Assembly: GCA_035495615.1 (NCBI GenBank)
Contig: DATJFP010000021.1
Location: forward strand, 9,024-73,023
DNA length: 64,000 bases
DNA from: Verrucomicrobiia bacterium
GTDB taxonomy: Bacteria > Omnitrophota > Omnitrophia > Omnitrophales > Aquincolibacteriaceae
Direction: 5' to 3'
The first letter of the stretch is position 1; each line of letters begins with the position of its first letter. The notes under the pieces are model-generated. The model was not told the origin of the DNA and did not search any database. It was given only the letters and a program-made list of their open reading frames with translations. Positions 28,444-63,693 of this stretch are shown piece after piece. A program made the translations under genes and the position numbers.

Positions 28444-28449
28444 TTGGTC

Positions 28450-29722: not shown

Positions 29723-29760
29723 AAGGCCGCTTCGAGTCCAATCGCTGCGGCCTTTTTTTT
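29723..29760 (+). terminator. Terminator hairpin with a T8 tail downstream of arsC
   Basis: GGCCGC...GCGGCC stem followed by TTTTTTTT at 29753-29760. Confidence 0.5.
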
Positions 29761-30154: not shown

Positions 30155-30261
30155 TTTTTCCTCTCTTTCTGTTCAGAAGCGGGGAATCCCGCGAAATACT
30201 GTTCATGGACAACCCCCCTATTGAGGAGTATGCTGAATTTATAGGGGGGGAGGTGATTGCT

Positions 30262-30555: not shown

Positions 30556-30594
30556 ACTGAAAGCGGCGTTTGCCCGACGGCGCATTTGTTTTCT

Positions 30595-32071: not shown

Positions 32072-32133
32072 CGGATTCCCTTCACTATTATCGAATAGTT
32101 ACTTTGATCCGTCCATGGGTAATGAAATGCTGC

Positions 32134-33321
32134 TTAGGCGGCCTGAAGCTGCAAGTACACCGATTTCCACTGGGTGAGCATTTGATGAAATCGGCGGCGG
32201 GCCTCTAGGCTTCTAACAGCGGCTTCCTTCGTTGCATTGGAATGCCGTGCAATGCGCTGACAGAGAATCTGCTGATAATCCCTGGCGGCATGCTCCCAAT
32301 CGCCCAGGGTTTGCTTGAGTTTTTCATATTGAGCCTGAAGCATTTCTCGGAAAGTCAAGGCGCCCGGATTTTCGAGTCTTTCGAGAAGCCGGTCTTCAAG
32401 ACTTTGTTTTTCGGCGGCCAGTTGGGCGGCAATAATACGGAACTTGGACATCTTTCTTAAATCCCACGCAAGCCCCAGCCCGGAGAGTAGAGCAATTATC
32501 CATTTGGTTGGGTCCCATTGGTACCAGCGCACGCCATTCCGGTAATCTCCCGGGAAATGATGGTGATAATTATGATAGCCCTCTCCATTTGTGATCAAGG
32601 CCGCCAGCCAGTGGTCCTTCGCCGAAGAATAAATGTCGTAGGTGGCTTTCCCAAACTTATGGCAAACCGAATTGATGCAGAAGGTGGCGTGGTAGACCAA
32701 GGTAAGCCGGGTGCAGACGCTTAAGAGGAAGGCTCCAAGCAGATGCCCTGTAAGCGCGCCAACGACGAGGGGAGTGAGAATCCCCGCCGTGATTGACCAT
32801 GCCGTGTAATAACGATGCTGATGCGCGAGAAGCCGGCTTTTTCGCAGGTCTCTTGCATTCTCATAATGGAGGGGATGCTGCCAAAAAATGAGCCATCCAA
32901 TGTGCGCGTAAAAGAACCCTTTTTTAATGCTGTAGGGGTCAAGCTCGGAGTCGACTAAGCGGTGATGATCGCGGTGCTGCGAGGCCCAGCGGAGGGCGGA
33001 TTGCTCGAAAGCGGCGGCCCCGAAAAAGAGCACGAGAAAACGGACAAGGGCATGGGCTTTAAAAGTGCAGTGGGCAAAGAGCCGGTGGTAACCCAGGGTG
33101 ATGCTGGTGCTCGTAACCGCCATGTAAAACAAAAAGAGCAAAAGCTCCGAGACTGAAATGCCAAAACGGAGAAGATAGAGGCAAGTTCCAAGCGTCCCTA
33201 AAAGGGTCGTGATGAAGAAAAAAATGACATTGGTCCAGATCACCTTTTTTACCGGGACCTGCTGTTGCGCCGCCGTAACCTCTTTGTTCCCAAATCGTTG
33301 TCCCATTGCTTTTTGTCTCAT
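32134..33321 (-). CDS. Acyl-CoA/acyl-lipid fatty acid desaturase with ~100-aa C-terminal coiled-coil extension
   Basis: His boxes HRLFAH, HRDHHRLVD, HNYHHHFPGDYRNG. 4 TM segments. Confidence 0.85.
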   Translation of the reverse strand: MRQKAMGQRFGNKEVTAAQQQVPVKKVIWTNVIFFFITTLLGTLGTCLYLLRFGISVSELLLFLFYMAVTSTSITLGYHRLFAHCTFKAHALVRFLVLFFGAAAFEQSALRWASQHRDHHRLVDSELDPYSIKKGFFYAHIGWLIFWQHPLHYENARDLRKSRLLAHQHRYYTAWSITAGILTPLVVGALTGHLLGAFLLSVCTRLTLVYHATFCINSVCHKFGKATYDIYSSAKDHWLAALITNGEGYHNYHHHFPGDYRNGVRWYQWDPTKWIIALLSGLGLAWDLRKMSKFRIIAAQLAAEKQSLEDRLLERLENPGALTFREMLQAQYEKLKQTLGDWEHAARDYQQILCQRIARHSNATKEAAVRSLEARRRFHQMLTQWKSVYLQLQAA

Positions 33322-33358
33322 GGCTTCAATGATAATTCAATTCAAGGCCGCGCAATAT

Positions 33359-33399
33359 GGGGTATTCAGCCCATGGACCGGAGGTGGGGTCAATACCCC
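33359..33399. promoter_or_regulatory. 8-bp inverted repeat GGGGTATT...AATACCCC (25-nt spacer) in the desaturase upstream region
   Basis: Perfect arms at 33359-33366 and 33392-33399, 40-80 nt upstream of the minus-strand desaturase start. Candidate operator or 5'UTR stem. Confidence 0.3.
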
Positions 33400-33461
33400 A
33401 TAGTTATTGTATCCGATAAGGTTTAACCTGACAGCTCGATCGGCGAAGTTATAGAGAAGGT

Positions 33462-34568
33462 ATGGGGGGTGGTATGAAATCGACGTCCATGATTCTGTCT
33501 GATTTTTTAACCCAAAATAAAAATGAGATTATTCAGCTATGTAGAGACAAGGTGCTTGCCGCGGGAGAGTCCAAGCCAACTTCAACCCTGTTAGAACGAG
33601 GGCTGCCTTTCTTCTATGATGAGCTCATCGAGGTATTAAAACGCGCCGGTTCCCTGGCCTTTATCGACCTCATTAAACAGGATGGCGAAGCTGCCGTGCA
33701 TGGAAAAGAGTCGTTGCGGCTTGGCTACACAATCTCCCAAGTTGTTCATGCTTACGGCGCTGTTTGCCAATCCATCACAGAATTTGTCCAAGCTAAATCG
33801 TATCAAATCACTCCTCTCGAGTTTCAAACTCTTAACCTTGCCCTTGATTGCGCCATCGCCGAGGCTGTAACCGAATTTGAGAAAACACAAAGCGAAAATG
33901 TCGCCCGAAGCGAATCTGAACGCCTAGGCTCCCTCATTCATGAACTGGGGAATTCGCTTGCGGCAGCATCGATCTCTTCTGATTTGATTCAATCGGGGCG
34001 AGTGGCAAGCGCGGGCAAAACCAGCGATGTGTTGAGGGGGGCGCTCAAGCGCATGCGCCACATCCTGGATGTTTCGCTCACTGAAATTCGTTTGCGGACG
34101 AAAGCCCCATTGGAAGCAGAACAAATCCGTCTTATTGATATTATAAGCGAGATAGAAGCCGTTACGATGATCATGTATGAGACTAAAAAAATCCATTTGG
34201 AATTTCATATCGATCCTTCCATTGAATTAACCGCTGACCGCCATCTGGTTTTTTCCGCGCTCTCGAATTTGGTGAACAATGCCATGAAATTCACAAAGAG
34301 AAATGGGCGTGTCTTCGTACGCGGCAAAGAATCGGCGGGGCGCATCTTGATTGAAGTAGAAGACGAATGTGGGGGCTGGCAGGAAGAAGATAATGTGGAG
34401 GAGTTATTCGATCCTTTCGTCCAAAAAGGAGAGGATAAATCCGGTTTAGGTTTGGGGCTCTCCCTCAGTCGTAAAGCCATCGAATTAAATCGCGGCAAAC
34501 TGACGGCGCATAATATCCCGGGAAAAGGATGCGTCTTTACAATCGACCTCCCGAAGATCGAGAAATAG
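33462..34568 (+). CDS. Cytoplasmic sensor histidine kinase (HisKA + HATPase_c)
   Basis: H-box SLIHELGNSLAAA. N/G-box region NLVNNAMKFT...GLGLGLS. Confidence 0.75.
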   Translation: MGGGMKSTSMILSDFLTQNKNEIIQLCRDKVLAAGESKPTSTLLERGLPFFYDELIEVLKRAGSLAFIDLIKQDGEAAVHGKESLRLGYTISQVVHAYGAVCQSITEFVQAKSYQITPLEFQTLNLALDCAIAEAVTEFEKTQSENVARSESERLGSLIHELGNSLAAASISSDLIQSGRVASAGKTSDVLRGALKRMRHILDVSLTEIRLRTKAPLEAEQIRLIDIISEIEAVTMIMYETKKIHLEFHIDPSIELTADRHLVFSALSNLVNNAMKFTKRNGRVFVRGKESAGRILIEVEDECGGWQEEDNVEELFDPFVQKGEDKSGLGLGLSLSRKAIELNRGKLTAHNIPGKGCVFTIDLPKIEK

Positions 34569-34829
34569 TTTCCATCAAGACTTTGAAAGTCCATGGCGCT
34601 AGATAGTGCCCAGTTGCGAAAGTCGTCCTGGACGGGGAGGCATTAAAAAAGCCAGTGCCCATGAGGGTGCTGGCTTTTTTATTTGAACCCGGCCCTTCAG
34701 CGAAGAAACCCTTTTAGGTTGGAAGAAGTGCCTGTTTCGCTTTCTATAGGGCTTATAGGTTCCGCTAGCTCTCTCATCGAATGAGGCGTAGACTCCTATT
34801 GTGCTTCGATTTATAAAGAAAGGGCATCT

Positions 34830-35918
34830 GTGAATTTTAAGGAAAGATTCAAACCATTTATTGAACATCGAAGGCAGCTCAAGACCATCTACGTGGCGAC
34901 TTGTGACGAAACCGGCCAGCCCAATTGCGCGCCAAGATTGCTTATCGATATCACGGAGCCCAACCACATCTTTTACGTTGATTTCAAGTCATCACAAAGC
35001 TATGCGAACATTTGCTCGACCAAGAAAGTCTCTCTGGCTTTTATGGACGAAAGAAATCTCGTAAGCTTTAAAATCAACGGGCGTTGCGAAACCATACAGT
35101 CCAGCAAAGAGCTCAAGACCGTTAAGGACAAATGGGCCAAGATCGTCAATGGTTATCATGCGGAGCGGATCATCGAACGGGTTACGGGGGTTGTTTCGGG
35201 CAGGGTTGGAGAAATCGTGCTCAGTGAGGATTACGTATTCATCAAGTTTTCTGCAGAGAAAATGAAACACGCCGTGATCCGGCATCCCAGTGCTTATCCG
35301 ATAGGTAAAATAGCGGCTTTACAGCTGCGGATCGACGATCTTCAAAAAGTCGTCGAGAAACAAAAAGAGGACGGGCGGGAGATGGAAGTCTCCAGAGATT
35401 CCTATAAAGCAAGCTCAGATATGTTTGAAGTCGCCGCAATGCAAGACAACCTTACGGGACTTTACAATCAGCGTGGTTTTATCGTCCTTGTGGAGCAGCA
35501 ATTAAAGATTGCCAAGCGGCAGAAAAAGGACAGTTTTTTTATATTTTCAGATGTGGATCATTTGAAACGGATTAATGATACCTTCGGCCATGCAAAGGGG
35601 GATCAAACGCTCGTGGAAATTGCGCGGATCTTGAAGAAGAGTTTTCGCGAATCGGATATTATCGCCAGAATCGGCGGAGACGAATTTGCGGTGGCGATGG
35701 TGGATTGCGGGAAGGAAAATCTGGATTTAGCAAAAGGCCGGTTAAAGAAAAATATAGAAGCGTACAACCGAAATTCCCGGGAGGCTTACCCCATCGAGCT
35801 TAGTGTCGGCGTCGCCTGCTGCAACTCAGACGACACAATCGATCTGCGTAAGCTGCTTCATCAAAGTGATCAAATGATGTATGAAGAGAAAAGAAAAAAT
35901 AATCCCGAATCTCTTTAA
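34830..35918 (+). CDS. PNPOx-like (FMN-binding split barrel) domain fused to GGDEF diguanylate cyclase
   Basis: N-terminal pyridoxamine-5'-phosphate-oxidase-like fold (TIYVATCDETGQPNCAPR). C-terminal GGDEF with intact RIGGDEFAV and RxxD-like context. Confidence 0.75.
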   Translation: MNFKERFKPFIEHRRQLKTIYVATCDETGQPNCAPRLLIDITEPNHIFYVDFKSSQSYANICSTKKVSLAFMDERNLVSFKINGRCETIQSSKELKTVKDKWAKIVNGYHAERIIERVTGVVSGRVGEIVLSEDYVFIKFSAEKMKHAVIRHPSAYPIGKIAALQLRIDDLQKVVEKQKEDGREMEVSRDSYKASSDMFEVAAMQDNLTGLYNQRGFIVLVEQQLKIAKRQKKDSFFIFSDVDHLKRINDTFGHAKGDQTLVEIARILKKSFRESDIIARIGGDEFAVAMVDCGKENLDLAKGRLKKNIEAYNRNSREAYPIELSVGVACCNSDDTIDLRKLLHQSDQMMYEEKRKNNPESL

Positions 35919-35934
35919 TTTGCACAGGCCCGCG

Positions 35935-36004
35935 CTTCAGAACTCAAGAAAGCCCACGATCTCATCCATGCACGATTTAAGAAGGTGGGCGAGACAGGGA
36001 GTTT
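35935..36004 (+). pseudogene. Remnant 3' end of an arsC-like gene (last ~22 codons)
   Basis: Translates to ...ELKKAHDLIHARFKKVGETGSF*, versus the arsC C-terminus EFRKVRDLIHTRFKKVAETGNF*. Confidence 0.55.
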
Positions 36005-36120
36005 TTAGGCGGCCAAGCTAATTCGGGCACTTTCCAAGAGGATACGGACCGACGAAAACTCAATTTTCAGGGCGTGAGTAGGGTTCCGAAACGCGTCCAA
36101 CAGGGGGAGTTTTGCAAAAG
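35935..36120 (+). repeat. Copy B of a ~180-bp duplicated module (arsC 3' end + conserved spacer). Copy A lies at 29548-29726
   Basis: About 80% nucleotide identity by hand alignment. Includes the blocks CTTTCCAAGAGGATACGGA and CGAAACGCGTCCAACAGGGGGAGTTTT. Confidence 0.65.
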
Positions 36121-36157
36121 GCGTTGTGTGGGTATAATCTCACAACGCCTTTTTATT
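36116..36157 (+). terminator. Bidirectional-looking terminator hairpin
   Basis: AAAAG-GCGTTGTG-(13-nt loop containing TATAAT)-CACAACGCC-TTTTTATTT. Confidence 0.55.
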
Positions 36158-36182
36158 TAATCCGAAGCTTGGAGGTGGGGAC

Positions 36183-37094
36183 ATGAATAAAACAAATTCT
36201 TTTTTATGCTCATTCTTTGCTTGTTTTTTATTAATCCACACCGGCTCTTTTGCCGCCGACATCCCTCAAGCCTCTCAGCAGGAGACCTTTAAGCGAATCG
36301 AAGAGCTGACGGGTGCCAAAGGCGCTTACGACGAAAAGGAGCAAGTCTTCAAAGTCAGCTTTCCTCGTAAAGATTTAGAAGTTAATGCGGCCGGGGCCAA
36401 AATAACTCCACCAATGGGACTTACCGCCTGGGCTGCTTTCAAGCTGATGGGCGATCATACCATGATGATGGGCGACATGGTGATGACCGAAGACCAGGTC
36501 AACCCGGTCATGAGCGTTGCGCTTGAAAATGGTTTGGAGGTTACGGCGCTCCACAATCATTTCTTTTGGGATTCTCCGAAAATAATGTTCATGCATATTG
36601 GCGGAATGCGGGATACGGAAGCTTTAGCCCAAGCGGTCGGAAAGGTTTTTGAAAAAATCAGAGAGACAAGCGGCGGCAAAGGCGAAAAGCCTTATCTTGA
36701 AATTGATCCCTCAAAGACATCTCTCGACCCCAAGAACATCGAAGAAATCATGGGTAAAACTGGAAAAATGAACGACGGCGTTTATAAGATTACCATTGGC
36801 CGGACCACTCAAATGGGCGGTCACGAAATGGGTAACGCGATGGGCGTGAATACCTGGGCCGCTTTTATCGGGAGCGATGAAAAGGCGTTGGTTGACGGCG
36901 ATTTTGCCATGCTCGAATCCGAAGTGCAGCCCGTATTGAAGGCTTTGCGCGGCGCGGGAATCAATATCGTCGCGATTCACAACCATATGACGATGGAAAA
37001 TCCGAGAATCATTTTTCTGCATTATTGGGGGATTGGCGCAACAGTCGATCTCGCCAAAGCCTTAAAGGCCGCATTGGACTTACAGAAACAATGA
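36183..37094 (+). CDS. Secreted protein with internal duplication carrying (A/I)HNH(F/M) motifs, DUF1259-like
   Basis: Signal peptide MNKTNSFLCSFFACFLLIHTGSFAA. Two homologous halves (LTAWAAFKLMGD...ALHNHFF and VNTWAAFIGSDE...AIHNHMT). Confidence 0.6.
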   Translation: MNKTNSFLCSFFACFLLIHTGSFAADIPQASQQETFKRIEELTGAKGAYDEKEQVFKVSFPRKDLEVNAAGAKITPPMGLTAWAAFKLMGDHTMMMGDMVMTEDQVNPVMSVALENGLEVTALHNHFFWDSPKIMFMHIGGMRDTEALAQAVGKVFEKIRETSGGKGEKPYLEIDPSKTSLDPKNIEEIMGKTGKMNDGVYKITIGRTTQMGGHEMGNAMGVNTWAAFIGSDEKALVDGDFAMLESEVQPVLKALRGAGINIVAIHNHMTMENPRIIFLHYWGIGATVDLAKALKAALDLQKQ

Positions 37095-37106
37095 CCGGGA
37101 GGGCCC

Positions 37107-37385
37107 TTGTTCGGAAAACGCTTAACAGAAAAATTTAAAAAAGAGCTGAGAATTTACCAGCTTATTTTGAAGGATTCCCGGACGCCGGGAATTTCGAAAT
37201 GGTTCTTAGGAATGGCGGTTGCCTACGCCCTTTCTCCCATCGACCTTATTCCGGACTTTATACCCCTTCTTGGAGTGTTAGACGATCTGATTATTGTTCC
37301 CTTGCTCATTTGGCTTGGCATTCGCTCCATTCCCAAAAAGATTTTAGAGGATTGCCGAAACCAAGCAAACAACCAGGAGAATTGA
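37107..37385 (+). CDS. DUF1232 (YkvA-like) small membrane protein
   Basis: Motif SPIDLIPDFIPLLGVLDDLII. TTG start is uncertain, with an alternative internal ATG. Confidence 0.5.
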   Translation: MFGKRLTEKFKKELRIYQLILKDSRTPGISKWFLGMAVAYALSPIDLIPDFIPLLGVLDDLIIVPLLIWLGIRSIPKKILEDCRNQANNQEN

Positions 37386-37388
37386 CGC

Positions 37389-37997
37389 ATGAGAAAACTG
37401 ATCGTTCTTTCCTTTATATCGCTTGATGGCGTCATCCAAGCCCCCGGAGGCCCGGAAGAAGATACTTCGGACGGTTTCAAATACGGCGGCTGGACTTTTC
37501 CTTATTTCGATGGCGTGTCGGGAGAGATTATGGCTGAACAGATGTCCCGGCCGTTTAACCTGCTTCTCGGCAGAAAAACTTACGATATTTTTGCCGGGTA
37601 CTGGCCGCATCATGGAGACAAGTGGCCGGGGGTTAACGACGCGCCCAAGTATGTTGCCTCAAGGAACAGCTCGCTCAAACTTGAATGGAAGAATTCGGTC
37701 CTCCTGAAAGGCGACATCGCAGAAGAAGTGCAGAAGCTCAGAAAACAAAACGGTCCCGAGCTGCATGTGTACGGCAGCGGCGATTTCATTCAAACTCTTT
37801 TGAAACACGATCTCATCGATGAGCTTTGGCTCAAGATCTTTCCCGTCACTTTGGGGAAGGGTAAACGCCTCTTTGCCGAAGGCGCCATCCCCGCAGAGTT
37901 TACTTTGACGGACTGCAAAGTTTCTCCGAGCGGCGTGATCTTTGCCAATTACAAACGGGCGGGAGAGGTCAAAACGGGATCGTTCGCGGCCGGCTGA
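37389..37997 (+). CDS. Dihydrofolate reductase-family protein (RibD C-terminal-like)
   Basis: MRKLIVLSFISLDGVIQAPGGPEED...GGW...LLGRKTYDIFAGYWP is typical of the bacterial DHFR-like YwjB/RibD_C family. Confidence 0.75.
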   Translation: MRKLIVLSFISLDGVIQAPGGPEEDTSDGFKYGGWTFPYFDGVSGEIMAEQMSRPFNLLLGRKTYDIFAGYWPHHGDKWPGVNDAPKYVASRNSSLKLEWKNSVLLKGDIAEEVQKLRKQNGPELHVYGSGDFIQTLLKHDLIDELWLKIFPVTLGKGKRLFAEGAIPAEFTLTDCKVSPSGVIFANYKRAGEVKTGSFAAG

Positions 37998-38030
37998 ACA
38001 GGATTCAGGCGGCGCCGGGCTTAGCGGGAA

Positions 38031-52920: not shown

Positions 52921-55419
<2,499 letters not shown>

Positions 55420-55667: not shown

Positions 55668-56327
55668 ATGTCCCTGAAATTGTACGCTCATCCCTTCGCG
55701 TCTTACTGCCAGAAAGTCCTGACCGCGCTTTACGAAAATAAAATCCCATTTGAATTCCGCATGCTTGCGCCGGGCGAGGATAAGAACAACGCCGAACACG
55801 CGGCCCTCTGGCCCCTGAAGGGCATGCCGGTCCTTGTGGACGGCGGGCGCGCGGTCGTGGAATCGAGCATCATCATCGAGCATCTCGACCTTTATCATCC
55901 CGGGCCCATGCGCATGGTCCCGCAGGACCCGCGCGCGGCGCTGAACGTGCGTATGATGGACCGCTTTTTCGACAACTACATCATGACGCCCATGCAGGAA
56001 ATCGTGTTCGACGCGCTCCGCCCCAAAGAAAGCCGCGATCCTTTCGGCGTCCGCAAGGCCCGCGAAGATCTCGACACGGCCTACCGCTGGCTGGAAGACA
56101 CGATGCCGGGGCGCGAATGGGCGGCGGGAGACCACTTCAGTCTGGCCGACTGCGCGGCGGCGCCTTCATTATTTTACGCGGACTGGGTGCATCCGGTGGG
56201 GGAAGCCTTTCCCAGCGTCCGGGCTTACCGGCGCCGGCTGCTCGCCCGTCCTTCCTTTGCGCGGTCCGTGGACGAGGCCAGGGAATACCGCAAGCTTTTC
56301 CCGCTCGGCGCGCCCGACCGCGACTGA
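55668..56327 (+). CDS. Glutathione S-transferase
   Basis: N-terminal thioredoxin-like LKLYAHPFASYCQKV. C-terminal helical GST domain. RBS AAGGAG. Confidence 0.8.
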   Translation: MSLKLYAHPFASYCQKVLTALYENKIPFEFRMLAPGEDKNNAEHAALWPLKGMPVLVDGGRAVVESSIIIEHLDLYHPGPMRMVPQDPRAALNVRMMDRFFDNYIMTPMQEIVFDALRPKESRDPFGVRKAREDLDTAYRWLEDTMPGREWAAGDHFSLADCAAAPSLFYADWVHPVGEAFPSVRAYRRRLLARPSFARSVDEAREYRKLFPLGAPDRD

Positions 56328-56492: not shown

Positions 56493-59228
56493 ATGACTTT
56501 TCCGAAAAAAAACTCCTTTCTCGCCGCCCTTTTTCTTTCGCCTCTCCTGCTTTTTCCGCGTCCGGTCCTCTGCGATTCGCCTTCCGGGGATGACCCGAAC
56601 CGTTTTCTCGGCGTGAAGCGCTGGACCGGTTCCGTGCAGGTGGAATACATGCAGAGGGAGGAATACCTGCAGGACTGCGGGACAGATACCGACGAGCATG
56701 GCAAATTCATGGAGTACGGAAAGGCGTGGGACTCGGATGTCCTCACCGGGCGGATGAATTTGAATCTGGACCTTCCTTATAATGAGCTGAAACCCACCGA
56801 CGATCAGGGGAAGGAAGACGAGAAGGCGGATGCGCAGGAAAAAAAACTCGAAGCCATGGCTCAGAAATTGACGGCCCTTACCGGGCAATCCATGGAAAGC
56901 GCGGGCGCGGACGCAAGCAACGAGGAAATCCGCCTCTTCGGCGACAATAACGGCGGCCAGTTTGTGGGTGAGGGAAGTATCCAGTGGGAGCGGAATGGGA
57001 ACTGGGCCTGCCCCAACGGCAGCCGGAGGATCCGGGCCAGCGGCAGTGGTCCGGCCAAAGACATCAGCGCGCTGCTTTACGTCACGGTCGGCAAAGACTG
57101 GCAGGATTATAGCCTGAGCGTGAACAGTTTCGACATCATCCCCGGGGACAGCCAGACCACGGACAAGTGGCGCCATTTCGACGTCTATTGCAGAGGCGGC
57201 GCGCCGGATAAAATCTGCGAGTACAACGACTGGCACAAGACCCCTTATTGGACCAAGGCTGTCGACCAAGTCACCCGGAACGGCGCGCATACTTATGATT
57301 ATCGATCCTCATCGACACGCGAATCCAAGGAAAACCGGGTGCAGCACGAGACCGACTCGAACGGTGTGCCGGAAACCGGGCCGGGGATGGGCAGCGTGTC
57401 CGCGGGGCTCAGTGTCGTGGACATCAGCGGGGACAAAGTGAGCGAGCCGTTCGGGCCGCCGCCGCAATATCCCGAGAATGCGGGCACGGACCAAAAATCG
57501 ATCGACGCGGCCATGGAGAAGTACAACGCGGAAATGAAAGTATGGCGCGCGAAGGTATGGCCCGCGCTTCCCAAGTCCGGCAATGTCCTGCAGGGTGAAA
57601 CCACCTGGAGCGAAAAAGAGGACGGGAACGATCCTCCGCACAAATTTGCAAGAACGATGAAGATCCGCTGGAACCTTGCCCCCTACGGAAAATCCGAATA
57701 TGAAGTCGAAGTCGAGATCGAAGGCTACAAAGACTGGCGGCCCAAAGGCAATAAGGACGCGAAAAAGCGAGGGAACACGCTGACCGTTCACGCCAAGCTC
57801 ATCGATCCCAAGACCGGCAAGGCCCCGGATGCCAAGGCCGAAAAATTTATTTTCGAGCTGAAGGAAACCTCGAAGGTGAAGGGCGTGGCCATGAACTGGC
57901 CTTCCGAACGCGTGGCCGCGGAAGATGACGACATGAAATTCGAGTATGAAGAAAATCCGGAAAAAGATTTTGTCATCGAAAACGATGGGCAGACGATCTC
58001 GACGCGGGAAAAGAAATGGTTCGACGGCGCCACGGTCAATGTTTCCAGCTTCGACTGGGGCGGCTATGCCGGCCTCTACGTGAAGGCGGTCATGCCCGGA
58101 GGAGACACGGCGGAAGGGCATCTGAAAGGCGAAACCGGCCGCCAGATCATCCCGCTTCCCAAACGCACGGGCGATTCCAAAATCGCGGACGGGTGGAAAG
58201 AAAACACGCCGGGCGCTTCCGGAAAGGCCGACGACGCGGACGACGAAACCAAACCCGAAAACCGCATGGCGACCTGCGCGAACCACCACGGCGATGGGCT
58301 CACGCTTTACGACGAATACCGCGGCTTTTATTCCCGGCGCGATTTCCAGGCGGACGAGGGCCACATTTCAGGCGACCCGCGGCTCAAGGATTATTTCGTG
58401 ATCGATTCTACCGGCGAAGCGCAGCTTGCGATCAAACGCTTCGAAAACGCGAGCGGTCTCAAGGTCCATAGCTGGCTCATGCTCGATGAAGTGAAGGACT
58501 ACAAGAATCCCGTCGTCAACTTCAACAAGGGCGGCGTGAAAAACGACGTGGAGCAGCACGCGGTGGAGTTGATCCGCTCCAGCTTTTCCCAATTCGATTC
58601 CGAGGCCACGAGCCGCAGCGGTTTCCAGAGGCCCGGCACGCCGGGCACGCTGCCGGTCGTCAATCTCGGCATCCGCCTGAGTTTTACCGACATGATGAGA
58701 ACGATCCCGCATGAGCTTGGCCACGCGTCCACGATTGCGCATCACGGCAGCAGCGACGAAGGCTTCGTTTATTGGACCGAAGACAAGCGCGACGGGCAGG
58801 ACGTCATCGTGGAAGTTCACGCGGACAACTGGACGGACGCGCTGTTCGACGCGCACACGAAGGGCGAAGTGATCGAGGCCACTGCGGAGCCGGACGGATT
58901 CCCCATGGAGCCGAGCCGTTTCAGGAAGCCGCGGCGGCTCTGGGTGGCGCGCAAGCACGGCCAGCACAGCGGCGACGAATCCTGCGTCATGCGCTACACG
59001 CTCGCGGACGCGTACGATCCTTCGGAGACAGGCAGCAACAAGCGCATCTTCAAGGAAATCACGGCGCCTCCGGAAAAGTCGGGGTACACTTACTGCCAGC
59101 TGCCGGACGGGACAGGCGACGCGGGCCGCCGGTACGGCAGCGCGGACACGCAGCTCGAGCGCGGCGCCTGCAAGTACCAGATCTGCGTGAACGACAAATA
59201 CATGTATGGCCATCAGGGGCGCAAATAA
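56493..59228 (+). CDS. Large exported protein (911 aa) with a C-terminal metzincin-like zinc metallopeptidase module
   Basis: Signal peptide. HELGHASTIAH gives HExxHxxxxxH spacing. Downstream SCVMRY is a candidate Met-turn. The N-terminal ~700 aa have no recognisable family. Confidence 0.6.
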   Translation: MTFPKKNSFLAALFLSPLLLFPRPVLCDSPSGDDPNRFLGVKRWTGSVQVEYMQREEYLQDCGTDTDEHGKFMEYGKAWDSDVLTGRMNLNLDLPYNELKPTDDQGKEDEKADAQEKKLEAMAQKLTALTGQSMESAGADASNEEIRLFGDNNGGQFVGEGSIQWERNGNWACPNGSRRIRASGSGPAKDISALLYVTVGKDWQDYSLSVNSFDIIPGDSQTTDKWRHFDVYCRGGAPDKICEYNDWHKTPYWTKAVDQVTRNGAHTYDYRSSSTRESKENRVQHETDSNGVPETGPGMGSVSAGLSVVDISGDKVSEPFGPPPQYPENAGTDQKSIDAAMEKYNAEMKVWRAKVWPALPKSGNVLQGETTWSEKEDGNDPPHKFARTMKIRWNLAPYGKSEYEVEVEIEGYKDWRPKGNKDAKKRGNTLTVHAKLIDPKTGKAPDAKAEKFIFELKETSKVKGVAMNWPSERVAAEDDDMKFEYEENPEKDFVIENDGQTISTREKKWFDGATVNVSSFDWGGYAGLYVKAVMPGGDTAEGHLKGETGRQIIPLPKRTGDSKIADGWKENTPGASGKADDADDETKPENRMATCANHHGDGLTLYDEYRGFYSRRDFQADEGHISGDPRLKDYFVIDSTGEAQLAIKRFENASGLKVHSWLMLDEVKDYKNPVVNFNKGGVKNDVEQHAVELIRSSFSQFDSEATSRSGFQRPGTPGTLPVVNLGIRLSFTDMMRTIPHELGHASTIAHHGSSDEGFVYWTEDKRDGQDVIVEVHADNWTDALFDAHTKGEVIEATAEPDGFPMEPSRFRKPRRLWVARKHGQHSGDESCVMRYTLADAYDPSETGSNKRIFKEITAPPEKSGYTYCQLPDGTGDAGRRYGSADTQLERGACKYQICVNDKYMYGHQGRK

Positions 59229-60034
59229 TGAAAAAAAATATTTTGATTCTGGTCCTGATGTTCACCGCGGCGGCTGCCGCATGGATATTTTTTAACCGCA
59301 GCACTTCCATTCCCGCGCCTTCTTCGCAGGCTGCGGCGGCCCCCGGCTATCCCGCGGGTATTTCCCTTTCGGTCAATCACGGTCTGCACACGAAAATCCT
59401 GCGCGGCTGGCCGGTGATCGCGGAAGTCTTCCTGATTTTTCCGGAAGGTTCCGCGCTCGAGCCCGCGCTCCGCGATTCCTGGCAAGATAAAATCACGCTC
59501 GAGCTGCGCACGGAAAAAGGATTGCAGCCGGTGGATTTCCAAAAGATAGAGCCTGAGGCGGAAGGGGCGGAATGGACCGGCGTTTGGATTTTGACTCCTG
59601 AGGCCACGCAAAAGCTCGAGCCGGGCCAGTATCAATTGAAAGCGGTCTTGAACGACAAGGGTAAGCTGGTGAGCAAGAGCTACTTTTCGAAAGTGGAAGT
59701 GCTGGCGGAAGCCGAAAAAGATCTCCAGCCCGAAACCGGCGCTTATCTGAACGCGGAGGCCTTGATCCTGCAAAAGCGTTTTCCGGAAGCCGCGAAGATC
59801 GTGGATGATTTTCTAAAGACGCATCCGGACGATGCGGGAATGACCGAAATGAAAGCGGGGCTTCTTCGCTCCGCGGGCCAGCCCGAAGAGGCGCTGGAAC
59901 TCTACGACAAGGCGCTCGGGCCTTCCAACATGCAGGAGCCGCCTCCCGAAAGTCTGATGCGGCGCCGCCACGAATTGCTGCACGAAGTTTTAACTCAGGA
60001 TCATGAACCACAGGGGGAAAGGAAACCGGCATGA
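59228..60034 (+). CDS. N-terminally anchored TPR-repeat protein
   Basis: N-terminal TM/signal MKKNILILVLMFTAAAAAWIFF. C-terminal TPR-like helices (YLNAEALILQKRFPEAAKIVDDFLKTHPDD...). TAATG overlap with the upstream gene. Confidence 0.6.
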   Translation: MKKNILILVLMFTAAAAAWIFFNRSTSIPAPSSQAAAAPGYPAGISLSVNHGLHTKILRGWPVIAEVFLIFPEGSALEPALRDSWQDKITLELRTEKGLQPVDFQKIEPEAEGAEWTGVWILTPEATQKLEPGQYQLKAVLNDKGKLVSKSYFSKVEVLAEAEKDLQPETGAYLNAEALILQKRFPEAAKIVDDFLKTHPDDAGMTEMKAGLLRSAGQPEEALELYDKALGPSNMQEPPPESLMRRRHELLHEVLTQDHEPQGERKPA

Positions 60035-61968
60035 AATCACGCACCGTTTTGACCGCCTCGTTTTTTTTGATGACTGCTTTTTCGGCCCCGCTTCGGGCGG
60101 ACGCGCCGCGGCAGACCGAAATCGTCTTCGATGCGTCGCGCAGCATGAACGACCCGCTCGGCGCGGACACAAAGCTGGAAGCGGCCAAGCAGTCGCTGAC
60201 CGGCATTGCGGGCCAGATCGCGCCCGGTTCCCTGGTCGGCCTCCGCGTCTTCGGCGCGTCGCCGGTCGGAGACAACGTGCGGCAGTCATGCTTCGACTCG
60301 CAGCTGGTCATGCCCATCGGGCCGCCCAGCAAGTCCGCCATGATCGCCAAGGTGATGGCGCTCCAGGCGTTCGGCCAGACCGCGCTGGGCTATTCGCTGG
60401 AGCTCGCGGCGAAAGATTTCGACAGTGCGCCGGAGGTTTCGAAAACCATCATCCTCATCAGCGACGGCCAGGAAAGCTGCGGCAAAGATCCTGTCACGGT
60501 CATGAAGAATCTGAAGGCGCAGGGCATCGACGTGAAGGTGCACGCGATCGGGTTCGGCGTGGACGAGCCGACAAAGGCCCAGCTCCAGGAGATCGCGCAG
60601 ATGACGCAGGGCAGTTACCAGGATGCGCAGGACGCGCAAAGCCTCAAGCAGTCGCTGGAAAGCGTCGCGCACCAGGAGAAAATCACGGCGCCTGCCGCGC
60701 CGAAAGCCGCGGCGCCCGAAAACCCGGCTGAGGAAGCGAATCCGGAAATGCTGCTGCAGGCCCAGCGCGGAAAAGGGGAAAATCTTCTGGCCGCGGCGGC
60801 CGGAGCCAGGATCGTGACGGCCAGCAACCAGGACGTGGCGCTCGCCATGGACGGTTCGGAAGACACCGTGGCCTCGCTCGGCTCAGGGGACTATGCTGTC
60901 CTTTCTTTCAAAGACAACCAGCCCGCGCTTCTCGATAGTTTTTCCGTGCCCATTTTCGAGCAGAGCTCGTCGAATCCGAAAAAAATCGAGCTCAGCGCAT
61001 CGGCGGAAAATGCCCAAACCGGTTTTGTTCCGCTGCTTTCGATCGAGGTGCCGAACAAAGTCGATTTTAAAAACGTGTATCAGGAATTCAAAATCGATCC
61101 CCCGGCCCCGGTGCGATTTCTCAAAATCAGGATCGGGGAAGGGCGGTCCGGAAATTATTCGGACTTCGCGGAGTGGAAGGTCTCGGGCAAGCTGCTCACC
61201 GAAGATGAATTCAAGGCCGAACTCGCCAAACAGCCGGCCAAAGAAGTCGACGTGATCGCCAAAGACGCGGGAGGCACGATCGCGGCCTCCAGTCAGCAGG
61301 GCTTTGAAGCCCTGATCGACGGCGCTCCGGGAAATCAGGCCGGCGGCGAAAATGTATCAATCGATGCCGGAAGTGAAGTGGTCTTTGCTTTTGACGGCGG
61401 CCGCGAGGCTTATCTGATGCGCGCCGCGGTGCCGGTTTATGAAGCGGCGCCCGAAAACTGCAAGACGCTCGAAGTGTCGGTGTCGCCGGATTCGGCGTCG
61501 GAGAACTTCCACAGCGCGGGAACGTTCCAGACGACCAACATGCTGATGAACGGCAAGCCGGAGCAGGAATTCAAATTTCCGGCGCCGGTCAAAGCCAAGT
61601 TCGTGAAGGTGAAATTCATCGACGATCACGGCAGCGGCGGCACTTGCGAACTGGGAGAGCTCGAAATTTTCGGTTCGTTCCAGCCTGTCACAGGCGCGGT
61701 GGACGCGGCATCGCTGCCGCAAGCCGCCTCGGCCCCCGCGGAAGCTTCGGAAACGACGGAAGCCGCCGAAGAGCCTCAGGCCGAGGCCGCGCCTGCGGCC
61801 GAAGCTTCCGCCGAAACGCCGGCGGCCGTTGATAATGCCGCGGCTCCCGAAGATTCCGGAACGGTGATGGAAAATCCGCCCTCCGACGGAATCGAAGAGG
61901 AAGCCGCTCCTCCGCCGGCGCAGGAAGACAAGGATTTCGAACAGGAGTCGAAGCCGGCCGGAAACTGA
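60031..61968 (+). CDS. Exported von Willebrand factor A domain protein with two discoidin/F5-8-type-C-like domains and an acidic Ala/Glu/Pro-rich tail
   Basis: Signal peptide. MIDAS motif DASRSM...ILISDGQESCG. Later FLKIRIGEGRS...EWKVSG and FVKVKFIDDHGSGG repeat modules. ATGA overlap with the upstream gene. Confidence 0.65.
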   Translation: MKSRTVLTASFFLMTAFSAPLRADAPRQTEIVFDASRSMNDPLGADTKLEAAKQSLTGIAGQIAPGSLVGLRVFGASPVGDNVRQSCFDSQLVMPIGPPSKSAMIAKVMALQAFGQTALGYSLELAAKDFDSAPEVSKTIILISDGQESCGKDPVTVMKNLKAQGIDVKVHAIGFGVDEPTKAQLQEIAQMTQGSYQDAQDAQSLKQSLESVAHQEKITAPAAPKAAAPENPAEEANPEMLLQAQRGKGENLLAAAAGARIVTASNQDVALAMDGSEDTVASLGSGDYAVLSFKDNQPALLDSFSVPIFEQSSSNPKKIELSASAENAQTGFVPLLSIEVPNKVDFKNVYQEFKIDPPAPVRFLKIRIGEGRSGNYSDFAEWKVSGKLLTEDEFKAELAKQPAKEVDVIAKDAGGTIAASSQQGFEALIDGAPGNQAGGENVSIDAGSEVVFAFDGGREAYLMRAAVPVYEAAPENCKTLEVSVSPDSASENFHSAGTFQTTNMLMNGKPEQEFKFPAPVKAKFVKVKFIDDHGSGGTCELGELEIFGSFQPVTGAVDAASLPQAASAPAEASETTEAAEEPQAEAAPAAEASAETPAAVDNAAAPEDSGTVMENPPSDGIEEEAAPPPAQEDKDFEQESKPAGN

Positions 61969-61987
61969 ATCGAGTCGGGAAAAAAAG

Positions 61988-62022
61988 AAAGCCGGCATCC
62001 CCAAGATGCCGGCTTTTTTTTA
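61988..62022. terminator. Bidirectional rho-independent terminator between convergent genes
   Basis: AAAAAAGAAA-GCCGGCATC-cccaa-GATGCCGGC-TTTTTTTTT. Confidence 0.75.
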
Positions 62023-62034: not shown

Positions 62035-63693
62035 CTAATTGCCGCCGTTCATGTAGCGGCCGAGCGTATCGTAAGCCTGGCGCGCTTCGTCTTCGGTGGG
62101 CGCGTCCTCGGACTGTTGATCTTCGTACTGTTCCTGATAATCGCCCGAAGTGTCGCCTTCGTACTGGCCGTCCTGCTGGCCGTAATCCTGCGTGGAACCG
62201 TCAAAGGGATTCGGCATCTGGCCCTGGAATCCGCCTCCGCCTCCGGAAAATTGAGAAGCGATGTTTTGAATCTGTCCCAGGACCTGGCCGGCCTGCTGCA
62301 GCGTATTTCCGGTTTGATTGGGACGGCGCGGCGGATAAGGACCCTGCTGCTGCGGATAGCCGCCGTTCGCGTAACCCTGCTGCTGCGGGTAGGCGCCTTG
62401 CTGCGCGGGATATTGCTGCGGGTAACCCGCGTTCGGATAAGCCTGAGGCTGCTGCATCGGCATCGGGCCTTGCGCGGGGCCTTGATCGTAGAGTCCGTTC
62501 TGCCAGGCTTCAGGCCGGCTCGAAGCGGACGCCTGGCGTACGGCCTTCATGCCCGGATCTTCCGGCGGCATGGCCGCGGCCGGAGCCTGGGCAAGCTGCT
62601 GCAAAGGCTGCTGCATCACGGAGGCGCGGGAATTCGAGGCCTGCGCCGGCGGCAAAGCGCCCTGGAGACGCGCCTCCTGCTGGACGGCCTGCGCGATGCC
62701 CTGGCCAAACTGATCCGCCTGCTGCATGTCTTCGGCGCTCGGCGCTTCGGCGTCTCCGGCAGGCATGCCCATTTGTTTGGCCGTCGCGCTCATGTTGTTC
62801 ATCATGTCCGAGAGCTTGAAGTCCCCGTTCGACATCTTCGACATGATGTTCTGCGAGCGCATGCCCATCAGATCGTCGACTTTGGTGAATCCCTCCGGCA
62901 ATTCGAAGAGCGCGGGATCGGCCTTGACCGTGTCGGCTTGCTGCATTTCGAACAGCATGTTTTCCACCGCGTTGCCATTCTCGTCCTGTCCGGCCTGCGA
63001 CATGGCCAGCGCCAGGCGTTCGGGTAAATTTTTCGCGTACGGCATGCCCGTCATGCCCTGCGCCAGCGCGGAACCGATCAGGGTCATGGACTTGATCAGC
63101 TCTTCGCGTTCTTTGGCGGGGTAGAGGGAGTATTGGGAATCGACCTTGGCTTTTTCGAACGCGGAGATTTCTTTCTGGATCTTCGCCGCCTTCGGATCTT
63201 TGTCGGAAGCAAGCCAGATCGCGCCGATCATGGAATTTTGCTGCGGGCACGAGGGCCCGTAACCTTCGGCCTGGAACCCGGCGATGGTTCTTTCCCCGAC
63301 TTTCTTGGACTGCGCGCAGGGGTCGTTCGCCACGGCATCCGGCACCTTGTCCATCTGCTTCTTGTACGCCTCCATCTCTTTTTGCTCTTCAGGAGTAAGA
63401 CTTTCGTCGCTTCCTTCTTTATAAGGAATCGGAATGGGTTTTTCCTGGTAAGCCTTGAGCTCCATGTCGATGTCCCATTCCACGCCCTTGTCGACGCGCG
63501 TGATCGAGATTTGGTCGCCCATCATCCCTTGCGCGAGCGGAGAAGAAACCACGAGGCGCTGTTTTTTTCCGCTCACCCACATTTCGGACGTGCCCATGCC
63601 GTTCATGCCTTGGCTTTTGGTGTAGACGTCCGCGTGCGCGGCGGTGGAAAAGAGGACGAGAAAAAGGGGAAGGACGGGCAGAAGTTTTTTCAT
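62035..63693 (-). CDS. Secreted protein with Met-rich N-terminal domain and Gln/Pro/Tyr/Gly-rich low-complexity C-terminus
   Basis: Start at MKKLLPVLPLFLVLFSTAAHA (signal peptide) with RBS AAGGAG 7 nt upstream. C-terminal repeats YPQQ/GYPQQQG. An alternative upstream ATG lies at 63768. Confidence 0.6.
   Translation of the reverse strand: MKKLLPVLPLFLVLFSTAAHADVYTKSQGMNGMGTSEMWVSGKKQRLVVSSPLAQGMMGDQISITRVDKGVEWDIDMELKAYQEKPIPIPYKEGSDESLTPEEQKEMEAYKKQMDKVPDAVANDPCAQSKKVGERTIAGFQAEGYGPSCPQQNSMIGAIWLASDKDPKAAKIQKEISAFEKAKVDSQYSLYPAKEREELIKSMTLIGSALAQGMTGMPYAKNLPERLALAMSQAGQDENGNAVENMLFEMQQADTVKADPALFELPEGFTKVDDLMGMRSQNIMSKMSNGDFKLSDMMNNMSATAKQMGMPAGDAEAPSAEDMQQADQFGQGIAQAVQQEARLQGALPPAQASNSRASVMQQPLQQLAQAPAAAMPPEDPGMKAVRQASASSRPEAWQNGLYDQGPAQGPMPMQQPQAYPNAGYPQQYPAQQGAYPQQQGYANGGYPQQQGPYPPRRPNQTGNTLQQAGQVLGQIQNIASQFSGGGGGFQGQMPNPFDGSTQDYGQQDGQYEGDTSGDYQEQYEDQQSEDAPTEDEARQAYDTLGRYMNGGN

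What the first reader, a model, noticed from the sequence alone, without database searches (positions are those of the whole stretch)
56493..61968. Translationally coupled operon of three exported proteins: metzincin-like 911-aa protein, TPR protein and VWA-discoidin protein
Stop and start codons overlap at both junctions, TAATG and ATGA. Gene 1 has a signal peptide and ~700 aa with no recognisable family. It ends in HELGHASTIAH (HExxHxxxxxH) plus a downstream CVMRY Met-turn candidate. That makes it a metzincin-like protease with non-canonical Thr at the usual Gly position. Gene 2 is an N-anchored TPR protein. Gene 3 is a secreted VWA (MIDAS DxSxS) protein with two discoidin-like modules and an acidic tail. 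VWA+TPR pairs recall BatA-E-type envelope complexes, but the protease partner and domain make-up are different. This is a candidate uncharacterised cell-surface adhesion/proteolysis system.
Basis: partly seen in the sequence, partly recalled or inferred. Interest (0 to 1): 0.6.

Follow-up and report, generated by a model that had tools for sequence, protein, structure and literature searches.

The report
Unnamed secreted zinc-protease/TPR-partner gene module
The three overlapping genes are real; the first belongs to a large, unnamed family of secreted zinc proteases resembling astacin/serralysin enzymes that almost always sits next to, or is fused to, a small TPR partner protein, while the third (VWA-discoidin) gene is an add-on found only in a few relatives.

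Summary
Three same-strand ORFs (56493-59228, 59228-60034, 60031-61968) overlap as TAATG and ATGA and end at a bidirectional terminator hairpin. Gene 1 has no Pfam, NCBIfam, PADLOC or PDB match. An exhaustive HMMER search nevertheless finds 1,457 50%-identity clusters of relatives, in Acidobacteriota, Verrucomicrobiota, Planctomycetota, Rhodothermales and others. HExxHxxxxxHH and CxMRY are invariant or nearly so. An AlphaFold model (pLDDT >90 over residues 400-900) gives the metzincin order of strands and helices, preceded by macroglobulin-like beta-sandwiches. Similarity to known metzincins stops at the zinc motif, so this looks like an undescribed metzincin-type family. Gene 2 (beta-rich domain plus 2-3 TPRs) is its conserved partner. 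It is adjacent or fused to 65 of 75 gene-1 homologues with enough flanking sequence, usually with a 4-nt overlap, and seven fusion proteins exist. In other lineages it carries T9SS, dockerin or Ig-type surface modules. Gene 3 (VWA/MIDAS plus two discoidin-like modules) recurs in only two relatives, so it is a lineage-specific accessory. A fourth secreted family, the convergent gene 62035-63693, is linked in the closest relatives. The BatA-E analogy fails. Function is inferred, not shown.

The parts
56493..59228 (+). Gene 1 (G1), 911 aa: exported multidomain metzincin-like zinc peptidase. Identical to NCBI hypothetical protein VL688_02695 of a Verrucomicrobiae MAG.
56493..56573 (+). G1 N-terminal signal peptide (about residues 1-27, MTFPKKNSFLAALFLSPLLLFPRPVLC). 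It is followed at 56589-56642 by the family's N-terminal motif DPNRFxxVxxWxG.
   Evidence: Hydropathy. Relatives have typical type-I signal peptides followed by the same motif, and only 7 of 137 have a lipobox-like site.
57588..58172 (+). G1 tandem beta-sandwich (macroglobulin-like) domains, residues about 366-560.
   Evidence: AlphaFold model with pLDDT 90-98. Foldseek matches complement C3 and bacterial alpha-2-macroglobulin MG domains at E 8.7e-6 to 2e-3 over 264-312 columns, and also reeler and YcnI sandwiches.
58230..58328 (+). G1 acidic loop plus invariant motif DDADDE...GDGLTLYDEYRGF (residues 580-612). It looks like a single calcium-binding (thrombospondin type 3 or dockerin-like) loop.
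   Evidence: G600, D601, G602, Y609, R610, G611 are invariant. The calcium-binding reading is inference from the sequence pattern; Pfam does not recognise it.
58350..59207 (+). G1 catalytic domain, residues about 620-905. Predicted order: strand, helix, four strands, active-site helix, a roughly 70-residue beta insert, Met-turn, C-terminal helix. Four conserved Cys (831, 868, 893, 898).
   Evidence: Secondary structure (E633-638, H644-654, E657-659, E691-695, E704-706, E722-725, H731-744..., H875-881). Conservation. In a PDB profile search 27 of 28 sub-threshold hits are metzincins. Astacin is hit by 5 of 31 members (best E 0.089) and Reprolysin_5 at E 6e-4 in L075.
58710..58745 (+). Zinc-binding motif HELGHASTIAHH (H740, E741, H744, H750, H751).
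58983..58997 (+). Met-turn candidate CVMRY (C831, M833, Y835), within the conserved block GQHSGxExCxMRY.
59228..60034 (+). Gene 2 (G2), 268 aa: cognate partner of G1. It has an N-terminal hydrophobic signal or anchor (59228-59293), a family-specific beta-rich domain (about 59351-59722), 2-3 TPRs (about 59735-59932) and an 'EPP' tail.
   Evidence: TPR hits. Homologues lie immediately downstream of G1 homologues in 61 of 75 cases, upstream in 3, and fused in 1 locus plus 6 representative proteins.
60031..61968 (+). Gene 3 (G3), 645 aa: signal peptide, VWA domain (60121-60651, MIDAS DASRS at 60130-60144), two discoidin/galactose-binding-like modules (about 60784-61194 and 61252-61680) and an acidic tail (61711-61965).
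   Evidence: An orthologue sits in the same position in L081 (phmmer E 1.3e-177). A larger VWA/Sad1_UNC relative follows G1-G2 in L052.
61985..62021 (.). Bidirectional intrinsic terminator: AAAGCCGGCATC-CCCAA-GATGCCGGCTTT, flanked by an A-run and a T-run. It lies between the stop of G3 (61968) and the stop of the convergent gene (62035).
62035..63693 (-). Convergent gene 'G4', 552 aa from the ATG at 63693. It has a signal peptide, a roughly 250-aa conserved domain (ADVYxKS..W.SGKKQR...ITRVDKGVEW...YQEKPI, two invariant Cys) and a Q/P/G/Y-rich low-complexity tail.
   Evidence: The same family lies inside or beside G1-G2 operons in L001, L002, L081 (two copies), L082, L086/L087 and L089. It has no Pfam or PDB match.

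Best explanation
The locus is a co-transcribed, translationally coupled operon for an extracytoplasmic proteolytic complex.

Gene 1. It encodes a Sec-exported zinc endopeptidase of an undescribed metzincin-type family. After a variable N-terminal region and tandem macroglobulin-like beta-sandwiches comes a roughly 290-residue catalytic domain. In it, H740, H744 and H750 would bind zinc, E741 would act as the general base and M833 would form the Met-turn under the site. Y835 may serve as an astacin/serralysin-style fifth ligand. Four conserved cysteines probably form two disulfides.

Gene 2. It encodes the protease's cognate partner, made of a beta-rich domain and 2-3 TPRs. The partner most likely binds the protease in a roughly 1:1 complex and tethers or positions it at the cell surface. 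In this organism the tether would be an N-terminal signal-anchor. Elsewhere it is a T9SS sorting domain, a dockerin or Ig-type repeats.

Genes 3 and 4. Gene 3 is a lineage-specific accessory that adds metal-dependent (MIDAS) and lectin-like (discoidin) binding, probably to target the complex to a polymer or matrix substrate. The convergent gene 4 is a second accessory of the same sub-clade.

Shown: gene structure, motif conservation, family size, gene linkage and fusions, domain content. Inferred: catalysis, complex formation, localisation, and the roles of genes 3 and 4.
For: Gene structure.

Family size. There are 1,457 clusters at E<=1e-3 and 486 at E<=1e-30. 214 stretches lie in species-representative genomes across several phyla, including cultured Paludibaculum fermentans.

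Catalytic motifs. H740, E741, H744, H750, H751 and C831 are invariant. M833, R834 and Y835 are at least 90% conserved.

Structure. The AlphaFold model has pLDDT 77.5 overall and above 90 over residues 400-900. Its strand and helix order matches a metzincin, and the HExxH helix ends at H744. Sub-threshold hits are almost all metzincins: 27 of 28 PDB hits (astacin, myroilysin, serralysins, MMPs), Pfam Astacin, Reprolysin_5 and Peptidase_M10, and Foldseek ADAMTS-5 at E 0.11.

Partner linkage. G2 is adjacent or fused to 65 of 75 G1 genes with enough flanking sequence. Nineteen pairs overlap by 4 nt and two by 1 nt. G1-G2 fusions are P0010, P0013, P0019, P0034, P0055, P0142 and L075.

Extracellular location. 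All products have N-terminal hydrophobic signals. G2 carries Por_Secre_tail, Dockerin_1, MBG_2/Big_3_5 or He_PIG modules in other lineages.

Accessory genes. A G3 orthologue follows G1-G2 in L081 and a relative does so in L052.

Precedent. Metzincins are co-transcribed with a binding partner in Mep72-BamI and AprA-AprI (PMC4334185).
Against: No significant sequence match to any known peptidase family exists. HMM and hhalign alignments with astacin and MMP-1 cover only the 23-33 residues around the zinc motif.

The canonical Gly of HExxHxxGxxH is absent here.

Nothing shows that G1 and G2 bind each other. Many G2 homologues, such as L012, have no anchoring module, so 'anchor' cannot be the universal role. 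G1 itself lacks a T9SS, dockerin or other export tag, so its route across the outer membrane is unexplained.

G3 and G4 are absent from most loci. Third genes elsewhere are unrelated.
Confidence: 0.6

Rival explanations
1. Gene 2 is a cognate inhibitor or secretion chaperone, like AprI for alkaline protease or BamI for Mep72. It would hold the protease inactive in the periplasm until export, rather than act as an anchor or adaptor.
For: A metzincin with a co-transcribed binding partner is an established arrangement, and BamI relieves Mep72 toxicity and binds it (PMC4334185). The tight translational coupling and near-universal adjacency fit a 1:1 antidote. Many G2 proteins have no anchoring module (L012 and L052).
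Against: G2 carries surface or secretion modules (T9SS tail, dockerin, Ig repeats) in several lineages, so it leaves the periplasm itself. Stable G1-G2 fusions exist. G2 shows no similarity to AprI, BamI or TIMP, and the PDB profile search returns only generic TPR proteins. The gene order is also reversed relative to bamI-mep72.
Confidence: 0.3
2. Gene 1 is a gluzincin-type or otherwise non-metzincin HExxH enzyme, or a non-proteolytic zinc hydrolase or adhesin. The nearly invariant E799 could be the third ligand, and the resemblance to metzincins would be limited to the motif.
For: All matches to metzincins are sub-threshold and confined to the motif. The Gly of the consensus is missing. The top Foldseek hits are beta-sandwich proteins, not peptidases. 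E799 is at least 90% conserved.
Against: H750 has the exact metzincin spacing and is invariant. An invariant Met sits in a CxMRY block like the SxMHY of astacins and the SxMSY of serralysins. E799 lies at the end of a beta-strand in the model, not on a helix as in gluzincins. The strand and helix order before the HExxH helix is the metzincin one.
Confidence: 0.1
3. The three genes form a BatA-E-like VWA/TPR envelope (aerotolerance-type) complex.
For: A VWA protein and a TPR protein are adjacent. There are weak hits of G3 to the Leptospira BatA model (E 1.3e-9) and to PDB 4jdu, 'aerotolerance-related membrane protein' (E 0.01).
Against: The BatA score is 37.6 bits against a cut-off of 380. G3 has a signal peptide and discoidin modules rather than Bat-type membrane anchors. 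None of the neighbours examined is a Bat-type gene or a MoxR-type ATPase; they are GST, H+-PPase, CLC, GFA, DUF1275 and LicD. The TPR gene's conserved partner is the protease, not the VWA gene.
Confidence: 0.03
4. Gene 3 is functionally independent of genes 1-2. It would be an unrelated secreted adhesin that happens to be co-transcribed in this lineage.
For: It is absent from all but two of the roughly 90 related loci examined. The genes after G2 elsewhere are unrelated enzymes.
Against: The ATGA overlap with gene 2 argues for coupling. The same G1-G2-G3 order occurs with an orthologue in L081, whose G1 is 41% identical over matched stretches, and with a larger relative in L052.
Confidence: 0.25

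Closest known systems
Astacins (MEROPS M12A) and serralysins (M10B), metzincin clan
   Same: Both share the HExxHxxxxxH zinc motif on a helix that ends at the second His. Both have a downstream Met-turn followed two residues later by Tyr (CVMRY here; SxMHY and SxMSY there, from my own knowledge of these families). Both are secreted. These families are the best sub-threshold sequence hits.
   Different: There is no significant similarity outside about 30 residues. The consensus Gly is replaced (Thr here, Asn in most relatives). The residue after the third His is an invariant His, whereas it is Glu in astacins and Pro in serralysins (own knowledge). About 80 residues with a beta insert separate the third His from the Met-turn. 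The N-terminus carries macroglobulin-like domains. Pfam detects no RTX repeats and no astacin-type signature.
Mep72-BamI and AprA-AprI operons of Pseudomonas aeruginosa
   Same: A secreted metzincin is co-transcribed with a small partner protein that binds it (PMC4334185). Mep72, like G1, carries non-catalytic binding domains.
   Different: The partner here is a beta-rich domain plus TPR protein with surface-sorting modules, unrelated to BamI or AprI. It lies downstream rather than upstream and is sometimes fused to the protease. An inhibitory role is untested.
BepA (M48 protease with C-terminal TPR domain)
   Same: A zinc protease combined with a TPR module in the cell envelope. G2 gives a very weak hit to the BepA model (E 0.19).
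   Different: BepA is a gluzincin-type M48 enzyme with the TPR domain in the same chain (own knowledge). There is no sequence relationship to G1.
BatA-E VWA/TPR aerotolerance proteins
   Same: A VWA protein and a TPR protein are encoded side by side.
   Different: The BatA model falls far below its cut-off (37.6 against 380 bits). No Bat-type neighbours were seen among the flanking genes examined. The conserved pairing here is protease-TPR, not VWA-TPR.
Macroglobulin (MG) domains of complement C3 and bacterial alpha-2-macroglobulin
   Same: The beta-sandwich region of G1 aligns structurally with 2-3 consecutive MG domains (Foldseek E 8.7e-6 to 2e-3).
   Different: No thioester motif or other domains of thioester-containing proteins were seen. 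The TM-scores are low (about 0.1) because only part of each chain aligns. In G1 the sandwiches are attached to a protease rather than to a protease trap.

Membership tests
Metzincin clan of zinc metallopeptidases | Zinc-binding consensus HExxHxxGxxH/D: two His, the catalytic Glu and a third ligand six residues after the second His | tested here: met
   HELGHASTIAH at residues 740-750. H740, E741, H744 and H750 are invariant in 102 relatives.
Metzincin clan of zinc metallopeptidases | Gly at the third position after the second His, where the chain turns | tested here: not met
   It is Thr747 here. Across the family the position varies, with Asn as consensus and Gly in a minority of sequences.
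Metzincin clan of zinc metallopeptidases | Conserved Met-turn downstream of the motif | tested here: met
   M833 lies in the GQHSGxExCxMRY block. It is invariant in 31-32 sequences and at least 90% conserved in 102-150.
Metzincin clan of zinc metallopeptidases | Catalytic-domain fold: a five-stranded sheet and two helices in the upper subdomain, and a lower subdomain ending in a C-terminal helix | tested here: inconclusive
Metzincin clan of zinc metallopeptidases | Zinc-dependent peptidase activity | not testable with these tools
   Needs biochemistry.
Astacin family (Pfam PF01400, M12A) | Match to the family model above its gathering score | tested here: not met
   No hit for the window protein. 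Five of 31 relatives hit, with best E 0.089.
Serralysin/matrixin family (Pfam PF00413, M10) | Match to the family model. For serralysins also C-terminal RTX repeats. | tested here: not met
   Peptidase_M10 is hit by 1 of 31 members at E 0.16. Pfam finds no RTX repeats. PDB serralysin hits have E 0.5-1.9.
BatA-E aerotolerance VWA/TPR system | BatA-type VWA protein above the NCBIfam cut-off, with Bat/MoxR-type neighbours | tested here: not met
   NF047508 scores 37.6 bits against a cut-off of 380. The neighbours scanned are GST, H+-PPase, CLC, GFA, DUF1275 and LicD.
von Willebrand factor A domain (gene 3) | Pfam VWA match above the gathering score, and a MIDAS DxSxS motif | tested here: met
   PF00092 scores 41.5 bits against 23.8, E 2.2e-10, over residues 31-207. 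DASRS is at residues 34-38.
F5/8 type C (discoidin) / Sad1_UNC galactose-binding-like fold (gene 3) | Pfam match above the gathering score | tested here: met
   For module 2, PF00754 scores 29.5 against 28.2 and PF07738 scores 32.1 against 22. Module 1 is recognised only through the internal repeat (E 3e-14).
Tetratricopeptide repeat (gene 2) | Pfam TPR match above the gathering score | tested here: met
   TPR_14 scores 29.2 against 23.5. The G2 family profile hits designed and natural TPR proteins in the PDB down to E 4e-39, through profile positions 165-247 only.
Anti-phage defence systems (PADLOC) | Any PADLOC model hit | tested here: not met
   No hit for any of the three proteins.

The most novel reading that the evidence does not exclude
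G1-G2 defines a previously undescribed and phylogenetically broad metzincin family. Its active-site signature is HExxHxxNxxHH...CxMRY, its N-terminus carries macroglobulin-like domains, and it has an obligate, sometimes fused, beta-sandwich/TPR partner. This two-component extracellular protease would be common in soil and freshwater Acidobacteriota, Verrucomicrobiota and Planctomycetota. It is absent from Pfam, NCBIfam and the PDB.
Probability: 0.55. Interest if true: 0.6.

Novelty: new variant of a known kind. Interest (0 to 1): 0.5.

Why it matters
Metzincins are among the best-studied protease clans, and new families are rare. This one is large: 1,457 clusters at 50% identity and 214 stretches in species-representative genomes. 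It is concentrated in abundant but poorly understood soil and water phyla that live on polymers. It also comes with a conserved partner whose role (anchor, exosite or inhibitor) can be tested directly. Naming it would annotate thousands of 'hypothetical proteins'. It would also offer a tractable case of protease-partner co-evolution, since a cultured host (Paludibaculum fermentans) carries two copies. The finding does not change any concept of how zinc proteases work, and function remains inferred, so the interest is moderate.

Tried and rejected
- Word-index homologue searches returned almost nothing. The full protein found only itself, the 32-sequence alignment found 2 proteins and the catalytic-domain alignment found 7, all 'hypothetical protein'. 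Only the exhaustive HMMER search revealed the family.
- The single-sequence AlphaFold run was useless (pLDDT 33).
- Foldseek against BFVD viral structures gave nothing.
- hhalign against astacin and MMP-1 aligned only the motif.
- tblastn against plasmids found no match.
- Cluster look-ups gave no source names for ten relatives.
- Two literature searches found no description of this family. They did surface the Mep72-BamI precedent.
- The metagenome scan for G4 returned mostly short contigs.
- Rejected ideas: lipoprotein (no canonical lipobox, and only 7 of 137 relatives have one); a defence system (no PADLOC hit); a conserved third gene (genes after G2 are unrelated); the Bat system.
Full report
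OBSERVATION

The window holds three same-strand ORFs at 56493-59228 (911 aa), 59228-60034 (268 aa) and 60031-61968 (645 aa). The first junction reads TAATG, with stop and start sharing one base. The second reads ATGA, a four-base overlap. Seventeen bases after the third stop comes a perfect 12-bp hairpin (AAAGCCGGCATC/GATGCCGGCTTT), flanked by an A-run and a T-run. It can terminate both this operon and the convergent gene that ends at 62035. Upstream lie unrelated housekeeping genes: a GST at 55668-56327 and an H+-pyrophosphatase on the other strand.

GENE 1 IS NOT AN ORPHAN

Pfam, NCBIfam, PADLOC and a sequence search of the PDB find nothing for gene 1. The word-indexed protein search finds only the identical NCBI entry, hypothetical protein VL688_02695 of a Verrucomicrobiae MAG.

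An exhaustive HMMER scan of 1.84 billion cluster representatives tells a different story. It finds 1,457 relatives at E<=1e-3, 1,030 at E<=1e-10 and 486 at E<=1e-30. These are typically 700-800 aa and match residues about 360-905 of the query at 33-44% identity. A scan of one genome per GTDB species finds 214 encoding stretches. They lie mostly in Acidobacteriota (Bryobacterales, Terriglobia, Vicinamibacterales), Verrucomicrobiota (Opitutaceae, Akkermansiaceae, subdivision 3), Planctomycetota and Rhodothermales. There are scattered cases in Myxococcota, Ignavibacteria, Chloroflexia and others, and two copies in cultured Paludibaculum fermentans. None of 32 relatives has a Pfam domain apart from an occasional TPR. 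Where sources give a name, it is 'hypothetical protein'.

WHAT GENE 1 IS

Conservation. In an alignment of 102 relatives, H740, E741, H744, H750, H751, C831, C893 and the block G600-D601-G602...Y609-R610-G611 are invariant. M833, R834, Y835, C868, H825, S826 and others are at least 90% conserved. The family signature is AHELxHxxNVxHHG ... GQHSGxExCxMRY ... RGxCxxQICVND. The position of the canonical metzincin Gly is Thr here, Asn in most relatives and Gly in a few.

Structure. With that alignment AlphaFold gives pLDDT 77.5 and pTM 0.70 overall, and above 90 over residues 400-900. The single-sequence run had failed. The C-terminal domain reads as follows:
- strand 633-638 and helix 644-654;
- strands 657-659, 691-695, 704-706 and 722-725;
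- helix 731-744, which ends exactly at the second His;
- a loop carrying H750/H751;
- a beta-rich insert at 757-820;
- the CVMRY segment, two short strands and helix 875-881.

This is the order of the metzincin catalytic domain as I know it from the literature (a five-stranded sheet with a backing helix and an active-site helix, then the Met-turn and a C-terminal helix).

Sequence matches. Profile searches agree, but only weakly. Of 28 PDB sequences with E between 0.15 and 1.9, 27 are metzincins: astacin, myroilysin, serralysins/alkaline proteases, MMP-1 and stromelysin-2. All are aligned on the zinc motif, and some serralysin hits extend over about 120 residues. Pfam Astacin is the commonest sub-threshold hit (5 of 31 members). 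The fused relative L075 hits Reprolysin_5 at E 6e-4.

Verdict on gene 1. It is a metzincin-type zinc peptidase by motif, Met-turn and predicted topology. It is not a member of any described metzincin family. An invariant His after the third ligand distinguishes it: astacins have Glu there, serralysins Pro, adamalysins Asp and MMPs Ser (my own knowledge). Relatives start with ordinary type-I signal peptides followed by a shared DPxRFxxVxxWxG motif, and few have a lipobox. Together with four conserved cysteines, this points to an extracytoplasmic enzyme.

GENE 2 IS THE CONSERVED PARTNER

I called ORFs in the 80 fetched loci and built a gene-2 profile. Of 75 gene-1 homologues with enough flanking sequence:
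- 61 have a gene-2 homologue immediately downstream on the same strand;
- 3 have it immediately upstream;
- 1 is fused to it;
- 10 have none.

The stop-to-start spacing is a 4-nt overlap in 19 pairs, a 1-nt overlap in 2, and at most 25 nt in most of the rest (start codons were chosen heuristically). Six of the 150 best family representatives (about 1,035-1,115 aa) are gene1-gene2 fusions.

The homology covers nearly the whole of gene 2: a beta-rich N-terminal domain of roughly 125-150 residues with no known relative, then 2-3 TPRs and an 'EPP' tail. In other lineages the partner carries extra C-terminal modules. These are a T9SS sorting domain in two Rhodothermales loci, a type I dockerin, MBG_2/Big_3_5 repeats and He_PIG/Ig-like domains. 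That places it outside the cell or on the surface.

GENES 3 AND 4 ARE LINEAGE-SPECIFIC ACCESSORIES

Gene 3. It is a bona fide VWA protein with a MIDAS motif, two tandem discoidin/Sad1_UNC-like modules and an acidic tail. Among the 80 genome loci only L052 has a relative after the pair, a 1,594-aa protein with VWA and Sad1_UNC domains. Genes found after gene 2 elsewhere are unrelated: phosphotransacetylase, H+-PPase, beta-helix enzymes, DUF6807, FG-GAP and others. In the closer relative L081 (P0005, whose gene 1 is 41% identical over the matched stretches) the order is again gene 1, gene 2, then a clear gene-3 orthologue (phmmer E 1.3e-177).

Gene 4. The same look-ups revealed a fourth family. 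The window's convergent gene (62035-63693, minus strand; no Pfam hit) has a signal peptide, a conserved domain of about 250 aa and a Q/P/G/Y-rich tail. Its homologues sit inside or beside the operon in the closest relatives:
- between genes 1 and 2 in L001, L082, L086/L087 and L089;
- overlapping the start of gene 1 in L002;
- on both sides of the operon in L081.

It has no Pfam or PDB relative. DUF4412 is hit by 1 of 7 members at E 0.064.

Regulators. In several Acidobacteriota loci an ECF sigma factor (PF07638) and a TPR-containing Ser/Thr kinase lie divergently upstream.

MECHANISM (INFERRED)

The best reading is a secreted two-component protease. Gene 1 supplies a zinc endopeptidase with macroglobulin-like domains that may bind substrate. 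Gene 2 supplies a stoichiometric partner that tethers or positions it. In this sub-clade genes 3 and 4 add binding functions. Translational coupling and repeated gene fusion are classic signs of physical association.

The main rival is that gene 2 is a cognate inhibitor or secretion chaperone, as with AprI for AprA and BamI for Mep72. There the co-transcribed partner binds the metzincin and relieves its toxicity (PMC4334185). The surface modules on gene 2 and the stable fusions argue for an adaptor, but the two roles are not exclusive.

A gluzincin reading with E799 as third ligand is unlikely, because E799 lies at the end of a strand and H750 and M833 are invariant.

The BatA-E analogy fails its membership tests (37.6 against 380 bits, no Bat-type genes among the neighbours examined).

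One gap remains. Gene 1 has no recognisable tag for crossing the outer membrane.

NOVELTY AND SCORE

The kind of system is known: a secreted metzincin with accessory proteins. The family, its active-site variant and its obligate TPR partner appear undescribed in Pfam (2025 copy), NCBIfam (2026), the PDB and the literature searched. MEROPS and InterPro could not be checked. I rate it a new variant of a known kind, with interest 0.5.

Noticed in passing
window 11-14143 (+): A single 4,710-codon open frame. Its first ~840 residues are the C-terminal part of a PutA-like enzyme (Pro_dh at residues 2-73, Aldedh at 366-837). The frame then stays open for about 3,870 more codons with no Pfam hit, running through helical sequence and a transmembrane-like stretch. 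It is either a real giant fusion protein or a lost stop or assembly artefact.
   Followed up: partly
window 28001-38000: GC content drops to 0.47-0.51, against about 0.55-0.64 in the flanks. This may be a horizontally acquired or polysaccharide-type island. The ORFs there were not examined.
   Followed up: no
L028, L035, L036, L038, L044 (also L013, L023, L043): In Acidobacteriota and some Verrucomicrobia loci, a TPR-containing Ser/Thr protein kinase (~800-990 aa) lies upstream of the protease-partner pair. In five of these loci it is paired with an ECF sigma factor (PF07638). This is a possible dedicated regulator.
   Followed up: partly
L013, L042, L061: Tandem paralogues of the protease gene, two or three copies in a row, some sharing a single partner gene.
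   Followed up: no
L082 5671-6030; L086 10390-11163; L001 8307-8855: A further small secreted ORF (119-257 aa) sits between the protease gene and the G4-family gene in the closest relatives. It has no Pfam hit on record and no counterpart in the window.
   Followed up: no
window 52921-55419 (-) and L019 10568-12727: An H+-translocating pyrophosphatase gene lies next to the protease module both in the window and in a Bryobacterales locus. This is probably coincidence.
   Followed up: no
window 16116-20222 (-): A 1,368-aa ORF without any Pfam hit overlaps two + strand ORFs (16032-17387 and 17391-19442). One strand's reading is presumably a shadow ORF.
   Followed up: no
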